The notes under the pieces are model-generated. The model was not told the DNA's origin. It did not search any database and saw only the letters and a list, made by a program, of their open reading frames with translations. 64,000 bases of DNA, taken from a virus. Taxonomy: Duplodnaviria > Caudoviricetes. Made by a program: the position numbers and the translations under genes. The DNA is taken from the IMG/VR virus record IMGVR_UViG_3300015615_000196, positions 32,001-96,000 of that record, one strand, 5' to 3'. This document shows, in pieces, positions 17,431 to 33,677 of the stretch; position 1 is the stretch's first letter; each line of letters opens with the position of its first letter.

Positions 17431-17841
17431 ATGAAAAAACTATGTTCCAAATGTAAAACAAAAAAAGAACTCAAGCAATTTTCTCGTAATCGTTTTAATT
17501 CAGATGGTTATCATCATTACTGTAAATCCTGTAAAAATAAGGATGCTAAACATCGATATTCAACAAATGAAGAATATCGTTTAAAACGTCAAAGAAAACA
17601 ATTAAATTATCTATACGCACTATCTGAAACTGATTACGATCAACTACTAACAAATCAAAATCATTCATGTGCAATTTGTCTACTTCCATTTGAATCAAAA
17701 AGAAAGACCTTCGTTGATCATTGTCACAAATCAGGCAAAGTCAGAGGACTACTTTGCCCGAAATGTAACAATTTATTGGGTCAATGCCACGATGATACTT
17801 TGATTTTAAATTCAGCAATCGAATATCTCACCAAAATTTAG
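17431..17841 (+). CDS. Endonuclease VII-family HNH endonuclease (probable homing endonuclease)
   Basis: CAIC...VDHCH..GKVRGLLCPKCNNLLG; opposite strand to its neighbours and lower GC. Confidence 0.85.
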   Translation: MKKLCSKCKTKKELKQFSRNRFNSDGYHHYCKSCKNKDAKHRYSTNEEYRLKRQRKQLNYLYALSETDYDQLLTNQNHSCAICLLPFESKRKTFVDHCHKSGKVRGLLCPKCNNLLGQCHDDTLILNSAIEYLTKI

Positions 17842-18443
17842 TGTACTGCAACATTACTTACAATGTGTTTTCCACGTCTGTCAATTTGTTTCCATTTGAT
17901 TTTGAAGGACGTAGACTCGATACCACCGAACATTGAAGCATTTGCATGAATCTCACAAAGACCTGTGATCAATAAACTTACTGCCAACGGACTTTTGCAG
18001 AATTCATCGAGTTCCTCATTCTTAATGGTATGGATCACCATATCATTCTTGATCAACTCGGCAACAACATTGTCATTCTTAAATAACTTTTTCCACACTT
18101 CATACGATGCATTCGCATGATCAGGAAAATGTTGCTTACCGTTTTCGTCAAGACAACGGACATAAGGCTTTCCACAATCGTGATACACTTGGTAGCGCAT
18201 CATCGTATCGTCATCCAGTACGTTACTGATAACTTCGTAACCATACTGATCAAGCCAATCAGGAAGTTTCCATTCGTATTTCAATGGTGATCCTGTACGT
18301 AAATGAGCAATCAAGTCACGATAGTACTCGTTGACCAACTTACCGTGATCGAGAACAGACATTCCTTTTGTCTGCTCACAAGCAATCATATCATCAATGA
18401 GTTCCTTGAAACCCAAGTTCTCAGGTATTATTTTAGTTTCCAT
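17838..18443 (-). CDS. HD-domain protein
   Basis: HG...YHDCGKP...HFPDHA motifs. Confidence 0.65.
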   Translation of the reverse strand: METKIIPENLGFKELIDDMIACEQTKGMSVLDHGKLVNEYYRDLIAHLRTGSPLKYEWKLPDWLDQYGYEVISNVLDDDTMMRYQVYHDCGKPYVRCLDENGKQHFPDHANASYEVWKKLFKNDNVVAELIKNDMVIHTIKNEELDEFCKSPLAVSLLITGLCEIHANASMFGGIESTSFKIKWKQIDRRGKHIVSNVAVH

Positions 18444-19069
18444 ACTTGTCCTTTTTCAGGGTCATAATGCCAAACATAAAACTCGGCTTTCTTTTCAGGA
18501 TAGAACTTCCCGCTTTCGATTACTGCCATGCATTCACCTTGGCAGAAAGTTTCTTTTGTGAGTCCAAGCCATCCGTGTGCGGTCATCGTATTGAACTGAC
18601 CGATCTTACTGGTAAGTGGTTGGCGTACTTCCCAACCACCAGAGAAATATTTGTCGATGGTTCTGGTTGTCCACTCGGCAATTGATTTCTCGTGTACGTT
18701 TCTCGCATACGCAGCTTCATCTTCGATATGCTTCCAGTATGAGGCTTTGCGTTCCTCATTATGAACATATGTGAGATCATAGCGAATGCGTTTTTTGATT
18801 CGTTCGAGATCACCTTCTTCATCCCAAATGATACTGTCGATGTCCATTGTATGAATGTCAACTTTGTATCCTTGTGTTGAAGTGACCAGCACCGAATCGT
18901 GAGGATAGAATCGTTTCTCTTCTCCCAATTCTAAATACTGGTAGGGGCCATCCCAATAACCTTCCTTCGGTTCTGCAAACCAAGGTGCACCCCCACCGGG
19001 AAGGCGAACGTAGCCTTCACCAGTAGGGTCTGCTTCCTGCAACATCTTTATGAAGTCTTTTGTTTTCAT
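18428..19069 (-). CDS. Hypothetical protein
   Basis: ORF overlapping its neighbours in an operon. Confidence 0.6.
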   Translation of the reverse strand: MKTKDFIKMLQEADPTGEGYVRLPGGGAPWFAEPKEGYWDGPYQYLELGEEKRFYPHDSVLVTSTQGYKVDIHTMDIDSIIWDEEGDLERIKKRIRYDLTYVHNEERKASYWKHIEDEAAYARNVHEKSIAEWTTRTIDKYFSGGWEVRQPLTSKIGQFNTMTAHGWLGLTKETFCQGECMAVIESGKFYPEKKAEFYVWHYDPEKGQVWKLK

Positions 19070-19521
19070 GATATTGCTTGGTTCTTCTCTAATCTTATTT
19101 TGTAGAAGTCACCTTTCTCCTGCTTGTAGTCAGCATACGCAGCTTGCATTTTTGCCAATGCTTCTTTGTATGCCTTTCTCTTTTCTTGGATGGCGATTTC
19201 CTTGTCAGACTTGATGACACGCACTCGTAAGTCGGACTTCAAAATTGTCTTCATCAAGAAGTGTAAGAACTTGTTGATCCCTGCCAACGTAGGACGGTTG
19301 TAAATCATCCAGATGTAGTTCGCAAGTTTCTTTCTTTTCTTCTTGCTTGCGTTGATCAAAGCTGCATTGAATTCTGCTTCTGTGATCTTGTCAAAGTTAT
19401 CTCGGTCTTTGAACTGGTAATCGTTTTTCTTAACGAAGTCCTCGATCTTACCGAAAGCTGATTTAATGAACTGATAGTTAATAGCAGTTGCATGTACGTG
19501 ATTTGAGATTGTGTTTTCCAT
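19066..19521 (-). CDS. Basic hypothetical protein downstream of the TAG-containing mini-ORF
   Basis: ORF with an AT-rich translation-initiation region. Confidence 0.65.
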   Translation of the reverse strand: MENTISNHVHATAINYQFIKSAFGKIEDFVKKNDYQFKDRDNFDKITEAEFNAALINASKKKRKKLANYIWMIYNRPTLAGINKFLHFLMKTILKSDLRVRVIKSDKEIAIQEKRKAYKEALAKMQAAYADYKQEKGDFYKIRLEKNQAIS

Positions 19522-19602
19522 AACTGAAAATTGTTAAATTGTTAAATGATTATTTTCTTTCGTTACTTGGACACTGTGTCCGAGTAAATGTCCAAGTTCA
19601 GT

Positions 19603-19638
19603 TTATGGAGGTCGTTCGATGATCTATAACTTTTTCAT
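19603..19638 (-). promoter_or_regulatory. Leader mini-ORF MKKL*IIERPP* with in-frame TAG
   Basis: ATG AAA AAG TTA TAG ATC ATC GAA CGA CCT CCA TAA, followed by alternative hairpins at 19563-19597. Confidence 0.6.
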
Positions 19639-19654: not shown

Positions 19655-20026
19655 TTATTTAAATGATTTTAATGCCAGTGGTAGGTTCGAAAGCATCTTT
19701 CGAATTTCAGGTGTGGCGTATACGGCAAGAGCAGTTGCTTGATCCTGAATATCAGGTTCACGGAAAAGTGTGACGTAAGGCGTTGTCTCCCTTAATCGAT
19801 TGTACCAATCGATCAAAGACGCTTCGTCTTTAACTGCAAGTGTGATAATTGAATTGGATTCTTCTTTCCATTGCTTCGCAATAGCAGGATGCTCGTGTAT
19901 GAAGTCAGCAATGGCGTGGGCGGTCTGGACGACCTGATAACCCGGTGAAATATCCTGTCTGGTAAGTGTTACCAGCTTGGATTCGGTAAATCTCGAAATC
20001 TACCCGATGTTGTGATCTTTTTTCAT
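19655..20026 (-). CDS. Pth2-like peptidyl-tRNA hydrolase with in-frame TAG at codon 9 (not in ORF track)
   Basis: MKKDHNIG*ISRFTESKLVTLTRQDISPGYQVVQTAHAIADF...NSIITL...FREPDIQDQATALAV...LSNLPLAL; TAG at 20000-20002. Confidence 0.8.
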
Positions 20027-20080
20027 GACAGTTGTTTTTAAATTGTGTTTCGTTTAAATCTAAGTGCCTTGTAACTATAT

Positions 20081-20104
20081 ATACGCAAAGGAGGGAAAAA
20101 GGTT
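20081..20104 (-). promoter_or_regulatory. AACCTTTT-N11-CGTAT promoter (ECF-sigma-like)
   Basis: One of six copies with identical spacing, all upstream of operons. Confidence 0.7.
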
Positions 20105-20160
20105 TCAATAAAAAAAGGGTTTTTTTCAAAACCCTCTTTTCAGTCGAATTTAAACGATTT

Positions 20161-22780: not shown

Positions 22781-22786
22781 TTATAC

Positions 22787-22872
22787 AAAGTATTGTTCTG
22801 ACATTGAACTACGCCCTTACGTCATGATCGTAATTTGAGGATCGGTGGGACTCCAACCCACAACTATACTTC
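22787..22872 (-). ncRNA. Circularly permuted tRNA-like (Y RNA/YrlA-like) RNA 2
   Basis: T-arm GUGGG-UUGGAGU-CCCAC lies 5' of D-arm GUUC-AAUGUCA-GAAC; closed by AAGUAU/AUACUU. Confidence 0.6.
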
Positions 22873-22874
22873 TG

Positions 22875-22947
22875 AGACCGTAACGGGACTCAAACCCGTA
22901 GCTTTTCGTTTTAGGGACGACCACTCTATCAGTTGAGTTATACGGCC
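22875..22947 (-). tRNA. Amber suppressor tRNA(CUA)
   Basis: GGCCGUA/UACGGUC acceptor, U73; GUCGU-CCCUAAA-ACGAA; C33 instead of U33. Confidence 0.75.
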
Positions 22948-23237: not shown

Positions 23238-23243
23238 ATATCG

Positions 23244-23315
23244 TGGAGATAATGGGAATCGAACCCACTTGTGATGTCGTCTGACACCAAACTCGTCCAT
23301 TGAGTAACTATCCCC
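23244..23315 (-). tRNA. tRNA-like RNA with Ala acceptor identity and non-canonical anticodon arm
   Basis: GGGGAUA/UAUCUCC (G3:U70), A73, normal T-arm; 7-bp stem capped by AGAC. Confidence 0.55.
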
Positions 23316-32852: not shown

Positions 32853-33677
32853 TTATAACATTTTGAATGCCGATTTTATTGTGTTCACTTTCGCCTGAAA
32901 CTCAGGCATTTGGAACACGTTTGGATAGTTCCAAGCGATCCCCTCTGCCATCAAATCTTCCACAGCACGAATGGTCGCACCTTCAATCTTTTTTCCATCC
33001 TGTTCGTACTCATATCCGAGTATCCAAAGGTTGGTTGAGATCGCCACCGTATTCGTAATGTCGTGAGATACAATGATGATCGTATTCAGTTCATTGAGTG
33101 CAGCGATTTCAAGAATGACATCGGACACTTCTCTGATCATATTGATGTCAAGACCCGAAAACGGTTCGTCAAGCAGCAAGAAACTTTCAGAACAAAGAAG
33201 CTGCTGAATGATTGCCACCCGTTGACGTTGACCCCCTGACAGTGATGCAGGGTAAAAATCTTTCTTGTCCGATAACTTGAACTTCTCAAGATACAATGCA
33301 ATTTTGTCCAGTTTGTCTTTCTTTGAAATGTTCAGTTGACTTGTGCCCAATTCCAAGTTGCCTTGAATTGTTCTGTGCATGAAGAGCGGATAGTTTTGTG
33401 CAACAACACCAACCACGCCAGCTTCCACAGGTTTGTTCATCACAGTCACCTTGCCAGTCGTAGGCTTGTTCAAGCCAGCGATAATTTTGAAAAGCTGTGT
33501 CTTCCCACGACCAGATGGCCCCAAGAACCCAACAACTTGTCCGGTGGTAATGTTTGGACGAACCACATCCTTTATTGAAACGTTGATGTCTCTCAGGATC
33601 AATTTATCTCCGTATTGCAATGAGACATCCTCAAGTTTGAGAATTTCAGTATCCAGAATGCTATACTCCTGTTTCAT
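32853..33677 (-). CDS. ABC transporter ATP-binding protein (NitT/TauT-like)
   Basis: GPSGRGKT Walker A, LSGGQRQR signature, LLLDEPF Walker B, VSHD. Confidence 0.92.
   Translation of the reverse strand: MKQEYSILDTEILKLEDVSLQYGDKLILRDINVSIKDVVRPNITTGQVVGFLGPSGRGKTQLFKIIAGLNKPTTGKVTVMNKPVEAGVVGVVAQNYPLFMHRTIQGNLELGTSQLNISKKDKLDKIALYLEKFKLSDKKDFYPASLSGGQRQRVAIIQQLLCSESFLLLDEPFSGLDINMIREVSDVILEIAALNELNTIIIVSHDITNTVAISTNLWILGYEYEQDGKKIEGATIRAVEDLMAEGIAWNYPNVFQMPEFQAKVNTIKSAFKML

What the first reader, a model, noticed from the sequence alone, without database searches (positions are those of the whole stretch)
19655..20026. Hidden Pth2-like gene that needs amber read-through at codon 9
Seen: behind a dedicated promoter and an AT-rich start, ATG is followed by MKKDHNIG-TAG and then 114 open codons with intact Pth2-like motifs. 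There is no in-frame ATG/GTG/TTG before the conserved N-terminal motifs. TAG ends other genes here, so the genome is not recoded. Inference: expression is conditional on stop read-through (the phage suppressor tRNA, or RF1 limitation), linking peptidyl-tRNA recycling to translation stress.
Basis: partly seen in the sequence, partly recalled or inferred. Interest (0 to 1): 0.85.

Follow-up and report, generated by a model that had tools for sequence, protein, structure and literature searches.

The report
Amber-gated phage Pth2-like gene
A giant Bacteroidota phage that uses the normal genetic code keeps a UAG stop as the ninth codon of a small tRNA-hydrolase-like gene and carries its own UAG-reading tRNA. 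About 40 distant phage lineages, some lab-grown, share this pairing, so the enzyme is probably made only while that tRNA overrides the stop.

Summary
On the minus strand, ATG (20026) plus seven sense codons is followed by TAG (20002-20000). Then come 114 open codons that fold as a Pth2 domain (pLDDT 95.7). The next ATG/GTG/TTG is 61 codons downstream. TAG is not an error. Among 43 homologue clusters (80% identity), 39 have ATG, 1-8 sense codons, then TAG; the leader peptide itself is not conserved.

The genome is not recoded. TAG ends 46 of 528 ORFs, and none of 203 ORFs shared with a 371-kb relative has a mid-gene TAG.

A tRNA(CUA) lies 2.85 kb upstream on the same strand (22875-22947; ARAGORN miscalled it). 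In relatives, a tRNA(CUA) sits within 0.05-1.7 kb in 15 of the 16 gated clusters whose flank holds any tRNA. This includes cultured phages Bxz1 and Myrna; XacN1 has the gate on a fused gene.

A second amber-gated mini-ORF (MKKL-UAG-IIERPP) follows the gene. Its end pairs with the next gene's start codon.

Best reading: translation gated by the phage's own suppressor tRNA. Nothing is experimental. Three 635-642-kb relatives have the gate but no detectable tRNA(CUA). This scan found the same cassette earlier on other genomes; I found no published description.

The parts
20116..20135 (.). Terminator-like hairpin after the upstream vWA-like gene (20928-20161, minus strand). It separates that gene from the Pth2-like unit.
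   Evidence: 8-pair stem, T-run on the minus strand seen; for the vWA-TerF-like hit, which is below the Pfam cut-off
20056..20089 (-). Promoter-like TTTG-N23-TAGATTT motif. A weak candidate only.
   Evidence: the pattern is found 17 times in the window against 14 expected, so the match alone is not evidence
20003..20026 (-). Start codon ATG and seven sense codons (MKKDHNIG). This is the non-conserved leader part of the reading frame.
   Evidence: In relatives the leader is 1-8 sense codons after ATG with unrelated sequence.
20000..20002 (-). Gate codon TAG (codon 9), followed by ATT.
   Evidence: TAG is conserved in 39 of 43 clusters. The two bases after it are a purine then T in 36 of 39 gates, against 4 of 46 terminal TAGs in this genome; Fisher p = 5e-16.
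19655..19999 (-). Pth2-like domain: 114 codons plus the TAA stop.
   Evidence: Pfam PF01981. Profile match to solved Pth2 chains, 2zv3 E 1.2e-7. AlphaFold2 pLDDT 95.7; Foldseek top hits are Pth2 structures with TM 0.73-0.77.
19603..19638 (-). Second amber-gated mini-ORF: MKKL-TAG(19626-19624)-IIERPP-TAA.
   Evidence: Leaders of the same design (x-TAG-I/V...PP, then TAA or TGA) occur in 15 distinct forms across relatives.
19598..19609 (-). 5' arm of a long-range helix. It covers the last Pro codon, the TAA stop and 5 bases after it in the mini-ORF.
   Evidence: MFE and centroid fold. The equivalent pairing is 11-12 bp with changed sequence in L006, L136 and L139.
19517..19527 (-). 3' arm of the long-range helix. 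It contains the start codon ATG (19521-19519) of the next gene.
19565..19597 (-). Local 11-pair hairpin enclosed by the long-range helix.
19066..19521 (-). ORF of 151 aa with no known family. It is the first gene behind the gated leader.
   Evidence: Homologues follow the Pth2-like gene in G001, L116, L001, L004 and L018.
18428..19069 (-). ORF of 213 aa with no known family, in the same operon.
17838..18443 (-). HD-like protein of 201 aa, the regular partner of the Pth2-like gene.
   Evidence: Adjacent to or fused with the Pth2-like domain in at least 31 loci and fused in phages RAS14 and XacN1. Pfam HD E 0.0016, below the cut-off. AlphaFold2 pLDDT 93.9; best but weak fold matches are a class-II tRNA nucleotidyltransferase (3wfo-3wfs, TM 0.54) and HD proteins.
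22875..22947 (-). tRNA with anticodon CUA: anticodon loop CCCUAAA with C at position 33, T-loop UUUGAGU, U73.
   Evidence: Infernal RF00005 52.6 bits, E 2e-10. Recovered by my own stem-loop scan. 75% identical to a tRNA(CUA) of the relative G001 that has U33. ARAGORN instead called an overlapping tRNA-Ser at 22837-22924.

Best explanation
This is an intact gene, not a pseudogene.

Proposed mechanism: ribosomes start at ATG 20026 and reach UAG at codon 9. They continue into the Pth2-like domain only if a phage-encoded tRNA(CUA) decodes that UAG. One such tRNA lies in the tRNA array 2.85 kb upstream and another elsewhere in the genome. Otherwise release factor 1 (RF1) ends translation after an 8-residue peptide.

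The gate sits in a variable N-terminal tail, so any inserted residue is tolerated. A failed pass costs only a tiny peptide. The gate UAG is followed by purine-U, unlike most of the genome's terminal UAGs.

A second mini-ORF directly behind the gene (MKKL-UAG-IIERPP-UAA) uses the same logic. Only a ribosome that has read through its UAG reaches the Pro-Pro-stop end. There it would open a helix that hides the start codon of the next gene. That would switch on the rest of the operon (two unknown ORFs and an HD-like enzyme).

Taken together, the suppressor tRNA would act as a trans-acting 'key' for one tRNA-end-care operon in a genome that otherwise uses the standard code.

Shown here: the sequence layout, its conservation, the fold, the tRNA linkage and the compensatory pairing. 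Inferred: that the tRNA is expressed and charged, that read-through occurs, that Pro-Pro-stop slows the ribosome, and what the enzyme hydrolyses.
For: (1) Gate conservation. 39 of 43 clusters (100 loci) have ATG, 1-8 sense codons, then TAG, and 34 of the 39 have no canonical start between the TAG and the first motif. The closest relative (L116, 73% identity) has a different leader, MKKIL.

(2) Choice of stop. TAG is the rarest stop here (8.7% of ORF ends), yet it is the gate in 39 of 40 gated clusters.

(3) Translation must cross TAG. One lineage (L005, L018, L184, L185) keeps a second TAG, again followed by ATT in L005, at a variable column inside the domain.

(4) tRNA linkage. A same-strand tRNA(CUA) lies within 47-1681 nt in 15 of the 16 gated clusters whose flank holds any tRNA. 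Of 26 flank tRNAs, 16 are CUA. Further linked cases:
- Bxz1: 306 nt downstream of gp154.
- Myrna: 130 nt downstream of gp84.
- A Bacteroidota MAG contig: two copies directly downstream.
- Complete genomes G001, G004, W04 and W05.
Two genomes whose Pth2-like gene has an ordinary start carry 24 and 28 tRNAs, none of them CUA.

(5) Not a recoded genome. No mid-gene TAG occurs in 203 ORFs shared between G000 and G001.

(6) Context. Purine-T follows 36 of 39 gate TAGs but only 4 of 46 terminal TAGs. The PP-stop leaders show the same context.

(7) Leader switch. The pairing of the leader's end with the next start codon is kept through sequence changes in L006, L136 and L139.
Against: Nothing is experimental.

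Three complete relatives of 635-642 kb (LR756504, LR745206, LR756502) have the gate, and two of them (LR745206, LR756502) also the PP-stop leader. Yet ARAGORN, a pattern scan and my own stem-loop scan found no tRNA(CUA) among their 45-63 Infernal tRNA hits.

The window's nearby tRNA(CUA) has C33 in place of the near-universal U33, so it may decode poorly.

TAG ends 46 ordinary ORFs in this genome, and these show no enrichment of back-up stops. A strong suppressor should therefore be costly.

ATT dominates after the gate (24 of 39), and in mycobacteriophages that codon is GTG with a well-spaced Shine-Dalgarno. Direct initiation there could therefore contribute.

The Pth2 'GK' lysine is an invariant Tyr in this family, so the enzymatic activity is uncertain.
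Confidence: 0.65

Rival explanations
1. Termination followed by re-initiation. The 8-codon mini-ORF really ends at UAG, and the same ribosome restarts at the adjacent AUU (GUG in mycobacteriophages). The enzyme would then be made without read-through, and the UAG would only make the event depend on RF1.
For: The codon after the gate is ATT in 24 of 39 clusters. In Bxz1 and Myrna it is GTG. There the annotated start is that GTG, and the Shine-Dalgarno spacing (7 nt) fits it better than the upstream ATG or GTG (1 nt).
Against: Other lineages have GTT (6), GTA (5), ATA, CTG, ACT, ACA or AAA after the gate. Most of these are not usable start codons. The same TAG-AT context recurs at a mid-domain TAG in L005 and inside the PP-stop leaders, where no gene starts. 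Re-initiation would work with any stop codon, yet 39 of 40 gates use the rarest one. This model also does not explain the tight linkage to tRNA(CUA) genes.
Confidence: 0.12
2. RF1-sensing read-through without a dedicated suppressor. Near-cognate host or phage tRNAs read the early UAG when RF1 is limiting or inhibited. Enzyme output would then report termination stress, as the in-frame UGA of prfB reports RF2 levels.
For: Three complete relatives keep the gate but have no detectable tRNA(CUA). UAG is read only by RF1 (textbook knowledge). Termination on very short nascent peptides is reported to be inefficient (recalled from the minigene literature, not checked here).
Against: tRNA(CUA) genes sit beside the gated gene far more often than any other tRNA (16 of 26 flank tRNAs). 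This genome has two of them. Near-cognate read-through in bacteria is usually very low (general knowledge).
Confidence: 0.15
3. Broken gene or assembly error: the TAG is a nonsense mutation or a sequencing mistake, and the ORF is a decaying pseudogene.
For: A single in-frame stop is the usual mark of a pseudogene. I could not inspect reads.
Against: The same stop at the same place occurs in about 90 independent contigs from 39 clusters down to 31-40% identity. The domain stays intact, with invariant residues and a confident fold. Cultured, completely sequenced phages also have it.
Confidence: 0.02

Closest known systems
Stop-codon-recoded phages with phage-encoded suppressor tRNAs (TAG read as Gln, 'code 15': Lak, crAss-like and others; Borges et al., bioRxiv 10.1101/2021.08.26.457843; PMC9523058)
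   Same: Here too a phage of a standard-code host carries its own tRNA(CUA) and has in-frame UAG that must be decoded. Recoding has been proposed as a post-transcriptional timing device. TAG is also rare as a terminator.
   Different: In this genome TAG is still an ordinary stop (46 ORF ends). In-frame TAG is confined to one gene and one leader, at a fixed position near the start. The truly recoded Lak phages have an ordinary N-terminus with no TAG in their copy of this gene. That paper does not contain the word 'hydrolase'.
prfB (RF2) autoregulation through an in-frame UGA
   Same: An early in-frame stop in a translation-factor gene makes its expression depend on how that stop codon is being decoded.
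   Different: prfB escapes by a +1 frameshift and senses its own product. Here the frame continues straight through the stop, and the decoding agent appears to be a separate tRNA gene. Whether the enzyme feeds back on that tRNA is unknown.
Archaeal and eukaryotic peptidyl-tRNA hydrolase 2 (Pth2: MJ0051 2zv3, AF2095 3erj, human Bit1 1q7s; Pfam PF01981)
   Same: Same fold (TM 0.73-0.77) and a significant profile match.
   Different: The Lys of the GK motif is an invariant Tyr, and the Asp of the DAG motif aligns with Glu81. The usual partner here is an HD-like protein that resembles part of a tRNA nucleotidyltransferase. Activity is untested.
Ribosome-arrest or leader-peptide translational switches (ErmCL/ermC, SecM/secA, RAPP-type ApdA/ApdP)
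   Same: The second mini-ORF ends in Arg-Pro-Pro-stop. Its last codons pair with the start region of the next gene, so a ribosome held there would unmask that start.
   Different: The input would be read-through of a UAG inside the leader, not a drug, a secretion defect or an amino acid. No arrest has been shown.
Xanthomonas jumbo phage XacN1 'orphan' suppressor tRNAs (PMC5852040)
   Same: XacN1 is a standard-code phage with two tRNA(CUA) genes and a Pth-like gene. Its HD-Pth2 fusion gene begins ATG AAG TAG behind a Shine-Dalgarno-like AGAGGA.
   Different: The authors looked only downstream of annotated amber stops and reported no target gene. An in-frame ATG four codons after the TAG could also serve as a start in XacN1.

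Membership tests
PTH2 peptidyl-tRNA hydrolase (Pfam PF01981) | Sequence match to the family model above its curated cut-off | tested here: met
   29.2 bits against a cut-off of 23, E 1.2e-6, profile positions 2-112 of 115. A profile of 38 relatives hits solved Pth2 chains: 2zv3 E 1.2e-7, 1rzw/3erj, 1q7s, 1wn2.
PTH2 peptidyl-tRNA hydrolase (Pfam PF01981) | Pth2 alpha/beta fold | tested here: met
   AlphaFold2 pLDDT 95.7, pTM 0.88. All Foldseek hits with E <= 0.001 but one (2gax, unknown function) are Pth2 proteins, with TM 0.68-0.77.
PTH2 peptidyl-tRNA hydrolase (Pfam PF01981) | Active-site residues of characterised Pth2 (Lys of the GK motif and Asp of the DAGxT motif; that these are catalytic is recalled from the literature, not checked here) | tested here: inconclusive
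   In the alignment to 2zv3, GK aligns with G20-Y21 (Tyr invariant in 38 relatives) and D of DAG aligns with E81. H28, E81, P82, D83 and T89 are invariant.
PTH2 peptidyl-tRNA hydrolase (Pfam PF01981) | Hydrolysis of the peptidyl-tRNA ester bond | not testable with these tools
   Needs an enzyme assay.
Stop-codon-recoded (code 15) phage | In-frame TAG in many genes, typically structural and lysis genes | tested here: not met
   No mid-gene TAG in 203 ORFs conserved between G000 and G001. Reading TAG as sense barely raises the ORF coverage (0.80 to 0.91).
Stop-codon-recoded (code 15) phage | Phage-encoded tRNA(CUA) | tested here: met
   Window 22875-22947 and genome c[299220-299292].
Programmed stop-codon read-through gene | In-frame stop conserved at the same site in diverged homologues, with coding sequence intact on the far side | tested here: met
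   39 of 43 clusters; 14 invariant residues downstream of the stop.
Programmed stop-codon read-through gene | Direct evidence of a read-through product | not testable with these tools
   Needs proteomics or a reporter assay.
Non-AUG (AUU) initiation of the infC type | A conserved near-cognate start codon at the head of the ORF | tested here: not met
   ATT in 24 of 39 clusters, but GTT, GTA, ATA, CTG, ACT, ACA and AAA elsewhere.
Leader-peptide translational switch (arrest type) | Short conserved upstream ORF whose end pairs with the start region of the regulated gene | tested here: met
   Window 19609-19598 pairs with 19527-19517. L006, L136 and L139 have 11-12 bp helices with different sequence, shuffle p 0.005-0.03. 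For the window itself the fold z-score is only -2.06.
Leader-peptide translational switch (arrest type) | Ribosome arrest or slow termination at the leader's end | not testable with these tools
   Pro-Pro-stop is conserved in 15 leader forms. That it stalls ribosomes is inferred from known Pro-rich arrest motifs.

The most novel reading that the evidence does not exclude
The phage's tRNA(CUA) is not a step towards recoding. It is a dedicated signalling molecule, made from a tRNA array that earlier notes of this scan describe as attenuator-controlled. Its only targets would be the two UAG gates of one operon, so tRNA trouble in the cell would be relayed into production of a tRNA-end-care enzyme pair (Pth2-like plus HD-like). 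The Pth2-like enzyme may in turn hydrolyse acylated or peptidyl-tRNA(CUA), closing a feedback loop that holds suppression at a low, context-restricted level.
Probability: 0.25. Interest if true: 0.9.

Novelty: new variant of a known kind. Interest (0 to 1): 0.75.

Why it matters
Suppressor tRNAs in standard-code phages have been a puzzle. The XacN1 authors wrote that they could not find any target gene (PMC5852040). This locus and its roughly 40 related lineages point to a target: a Pth2-like gene, often with its HD-like partner, that opens with an early UAG.

If the gate works as read, it is a natural version of the amber-suppression switch used in synthetic biology. It also shows gene-specific use of a stop-reading tRNA in a genome that keeps UAG as a stop. 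It could represent the stage that precedes full stop-codon recoding in phages.

It also matters for annotation. Gene callers truncate or miss these genes. GenBank labels Myrna's CUA tRNA as tRNA-Ser and Bxz1's as 'tRNA-OTHER'.

Cultured phages (Bxz1, Myrna, XacN1) make the idea directly testable.

Tried and rejected
- **DNA search for relatives.** A search of the locus against GenBank phages found nothing. Only protein-level searches found relatives.
- **ARAGORN alone.** It missed the window's own tRNA(CUA) and called an overlapping tRNA-Ser. I added an Infernal search and a stem-loop scan of my own.
- **tRNA(CUA) in LR756504, LR745206 and LR756502.** I tried a pattern scan, ARAGORN on every Infernal tRNA hit, and my own scan. 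All came back empty. An odd tRNA in LR756504 with loop AUUCUAAC is more simply tRNA-Arg(UCU). The TTCTAACCCC elements in the other two look like tmRNA-type ends, not tRNAs.
- **First whole-genome TAG=X ORF comparison.** It was swamped by off-frame ORFs. It became readable only after keeping the longest non-overlapping ORFs.
- **Back-up stops after TAG-ending genes.** No enrichment.
- **Genome-wide scan for further PP-stop amber leaders.** 2 hits against 1.55 expected, so the leader stands on homology, not on pattern counts.
- **Sigma-70 promoter scan.** No site directly upstream of the gene. The Bacteroidota-type motif is not above chance.
- **Repeat IMG/VR scan with the larger alignment.** It returned the same loci.
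- **Scan of reference genomes.** One locus only.
- **Amino-acid identity of the CUA tRNAs.** Not resolved. They differ in discriminator base (U73 against G73) and are not close to any other tRNA of the genome.

Full report
**What is in the sequence.**
The feature lies on the minus strand. ATG at 20026-20024 is followed by seven sense codons (KKDHNIG), then TAG at 20002-20000, then ATT at 19999-19997. A further 113 sense codons run to TAA at 19657-19655.

The part after the TAG matches Pfam PTH2 above the curated cut-off: 29.2 against 23 bits, covering profile positions 2-112 of 115. The domain begins eight residues after the TAG. The next in-frame ATG/GTG/TTG is 61 codons further on, deep inside the domain.

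An AlphaFold2 model built on 38 relatives is confident (pLDDT 95.7). Its significant matches among solved structures are, bar one protein of unknown function, archaeal and human Pth2 proteins, with TM 0.68-0.77.

The 'dedicated promoter' is the one part I could not support. There is a terminator-like hairpin after the upstream gene and a loose Bacteroidota-type motif, but that motif is no commoner here than in shuffled sequence.

**The genome is not recoded.**
The window belongs to a 362,603-bp virus record (40.5% G+C) with about 60 tRNA genes. Of 528 non-overlapping ORFs, 335 end in TAA, 147 in TGA and 46 in TAG.

I fetched a 371-kb relative whole (G001; its Pth2-like protein is 61% identical) and compared all ORFs with TAG read as X. 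Among 203 conserved ORFs, every TAG inside an alignment lay at its extreme start or end. These are either upstream of the real start or the true stop.

The Pth2-like gene is the only ORF of at least 80 codons in the genome with 'ATG, short run, TAG, ATT' and no nearby canonical start.

**The TAG is conserved; the leader is not.**
Protein-level searches brought in 100 loci:
- five huge uncultured phages from GenBank;
- 17 IMG/VR contigs;
- 78 metagenome contigs.

Clustered at 80% identity, these give 43 clusters:
- 39 have ATG, 1-8 sense codons (one, in 20 clusters), then TAG;
- one has TAA in that place;
- three have an ordinary start.

In 34 of the 39 gated clusters there is no canonical start between the TAG and the first conserved motif. 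The leader peptides are unrelated to one another (MK, MT, MNN, MKNT, MKKDLTTL and others). The closest relative (73% identity) reads MKKIL where this window reads MKKDHNIG. TAG is the rarest stop in these genomes, so its near-exclusive use at this site cannot be chance. A sequencing error or pseudogene is excluded.

**Read-through or restart.**
ATT does dominate (24 of 39). In mycobacteriophages Bxz1 and Myrna the layout is ATG-TAG-GTG and GTG-TAG-GTG, with the annotated start at the GTG after the TAG and a Shine-Dalgarno spaced for it.

Other lineages, however, have GTT (6), GTA (5), ATA, CTG, ACT, ACA or AAA. Most of these cannot serve as start codons.

One lineage (L005, L018, L184, L185) keeps a second in-frame TAG 34 codons later. 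It aligns with a variable column (A/V/D/E in relatives) and, in L005, is again followed by ATT. Translation must cross that TAG.

The same 'TAG then A/G-T' context recurs in short leaders where nothing starts. It is rare after the genome's terminal TAGs: 4 of 46 against 36 of 39 gates, Fisher p = 5e-16.

I read the ATT as a decoding context rather than a start codon. I keep re-initiation as a minor rival, and it may add basal expression where the codon is AUU or GUG.

**Linkage to tRNA(CUA).**
ARAGORN found no CUA tRNA in the window. ARAGORN had called an overlapping 'tRNA-Ser'.

This tRNA lies 2.85 kb upstream of the gene on the same strand. It is 75% identical to a U33-bearing tRNA(CUA) of G001 that lies 4.7 kb from that phage's gene. 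A second, canonical tRNA(CUA) is at genome c[299220-299292].

Across the 100 loci, flanks of only 0.6-1.5 kb hold a tRNA in 16 gated clusters. In 15 of these it is a same-strand tRNA(CUA), 47-1681 nt from the gate. Of 26 flank tRNAs, 16 are CUA.

The pairing holds in cultured phages. Bxz1 has a tRNA(CUA) 306 nt after gp154, annotated 'tRNA-OTHER'. Myrna has one 130 nt after gp84, annotated tRNA-Ser. A Bacteroidota MAG contig has two copies directly downstream.

Two complete or near-complete phages whose Pth2-like gene has a normal start carry 24 and 28 tRNAs, none of them CUA.

Against this, three 635-642-kb phages have the gate but no tRNA(CUA) that I could find by three methods. This remains unexplained. 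It is the main reason to keep RF1-sensing, near-cognate read-through as a live rival.

**The gene heads a larger gated unit.**
Directly after the TAA of the Pth2-like gene lies a mini-ORF, MKKL-TAG-IIERPP-TAA (19638-19603). Leaders of this design (one or more codons, TAG, Ile or Val, a short run, Pro-Pro, then TAA or TGA and never TAG) occur in 15 distinct forms next to the Pth2-like gene in relatives.

In the window's predicted fold, the leader's last Pro codon, its stop and the five bases behind it (19609-19598) pair with 19527-19517. That stretch contains the start codon of the next gene. The window's fold z-score is modest (-2.06). In L006, L136 and L139, however, the same two places form 11-12 uninterrupted pairs with different sequences on both arms, which is compensatory change.

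A ribosome that stops at the leader's UAG would sit too far upstream to open this helix. One that reads through to Pro-Pro-stop would cover its 5' arm.

Behind the leader come ORFs of 151 and 213 residues with no known family, and then a 201-residue HD-like protein. That HD-like protein is adjacent to the Pth2-like gene in at least 31 loci and is fused to it in either order:
- Pth2-HD in L007, L014 and relatives;
- HD-Pth2 in Stenotrophomonas phage RAS14 and Xanthomonas phage XacN1.

Its confident model (pLDDT 93.9) most resembles part of a class-II tRNA nucleotidyltransferase and HD phosphohydrolases, but only weakly: TM 0.54, Foldseek E 0.035. Together these suggest an enzyme pair that works on tRNA 3' ends. 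What it hydrolyses is unknown. The lysine of the Pth2 GK motif is an invariant tyrosine in this family.

**Comparison with what is known.**
The nearest described phenomenon is stop-codon recoding in phages with their own suppressor tRNAs. That differs in kind: many genes carry in-frame TAG. The recoded Lak phages have no TAG in their copy of this gene.

The logic resembles prfB autoregulation and arrest-peptide switches. Five full-text searches found no description of an amber-gated Pth2-like gene or of a target for suppressor tRNAs in standard-code phages. The main recoding paper never uses the word 'hydrolase'.

The XacN1 paper states that no target for its two CUA tRNAs could be identified. 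I find that its HD-Pth2 fusion gene opens with a Shine-Dalgarno-like AGAGGA, eight bases, then ATG AAG TAG.

Earlier agents of this scan reported the same cassette on other genomes. I reached the core result independently before reading those notes. I then used two notes on this genome as leads, for the nearby tRNA and the second gated ORF, and checked both myself.

**Verdict.**
The mechanism is still untested. My odds:
- 0.65 that the phage's own tRNA(CUA) opens the gate;
- 0.15 for suppressor-independent, RF1-sensing read-through;
- 0.12 for restart at the next codon;
- 0.02 for a dead gene.

Noticed in passing
window 22837-22924 versus 22875-22947 (minus strand): ARAGORN calls a tRNA-Ser(UGA) that overlaps the tRNA(CUA) scored by Infernal at 52.6 bits. 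The CUA tRNA has C33 and a T-loop UUUGAGU. Its D-loop has GA where tRNAs usually have GG, which may be a compensated G19-C56 to A19-U56 elbow pair.
   Followed up: partly
genome G000 c[298550-298621], outside the window (about 234.5 kb beyond its end): A tRNA-shaped gene with sound arms but a 6-nt (or 8-nt) anticodon loop, ATTGAG. Its D-arm resembles that of the canonical tRNA(CUA) 600 nt away. Similar odd-loop, Glu-like tRNAs occur in LR756504, LR756502 and LR756501.
   Followed up: no
L005 (LR756501, 735 kb), L018, L184, L185: This lineage carries a second in-frame TAG inside the Pth2-like domain (followed by ATT in L005), at a column that is A/V/D/E in relatives. LR756501 has two tRNA(CUA) genes 2 kb from the gene.
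   Followed up: partly
L159 (metagenome contig Ga0307377_10145564): The only locus whose gate is TAA instead of TAG. A relaxed ARAGORN run finds a 93-nt CUA tRNA-like gene downstream. It could be a decayed gate or an ochre variant; the contig is too short to tell.
   Followed up: partly
LR756504, LR745206, LR756502 (L001-L003 genomes): Three 635-642-kb phages keep the UAG gate (and two of them, LR745206 and LR756502, the PP-stop leader). No tRNA(CUA) was found among their 45-63 tRNA hits.
   Followed up: yes
L113 (Stenotrophomonas phage RAS14) and L197 (Xanthomonas phage XacN1, 242781-246038): The HD-like protein and the Pth2-like domain are fused into one protein. In XacN1 the fusion gene opens ATG AAG TAG ACC ATT AAA GCG ATG, so the gate sits on the fused gene, with an in-frame ATG four codons later.
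   Followed up: partly
L194 (Bxz1, record 95436-95509) and L195 (Myrna, record 33522-33593): GenBank annotates these CUA-anticodon tRNAs as 'tRNA-OTHER' and 'tRNA-Ser'. The Pth2-like genes next to them are annotated as starting at the GTG right after a TAG.
   Followed up: partly
window 23241-23300 and 22786-22870 (minus strand): Weak Infernal hits beside the tRNA(CUA): the 3' end of the tmRNA model (15.4 bits, E 4e-4, cut at the edge of the searched stretch) and YrlA (19.6 bits, E 0.22). Earlier notes of this scan describe permuted tRNA mimics here.
   Followed up: no
window 17431-17841 (+): An endonuclease VII (Pfam PF02945, E 2e-23) gene converges on the end of the gated operon.
   Followed up: no
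L002, L127, L140, L153, L154 and similar loci: In the lineages where the PP-stop leader lies upstream of the Pth2-like gene, its CCTCCTTAA end pairs with a downstream TTAAGGAGG (9-17 bp). This is a different target of the same leader design.
   Followed up: partly
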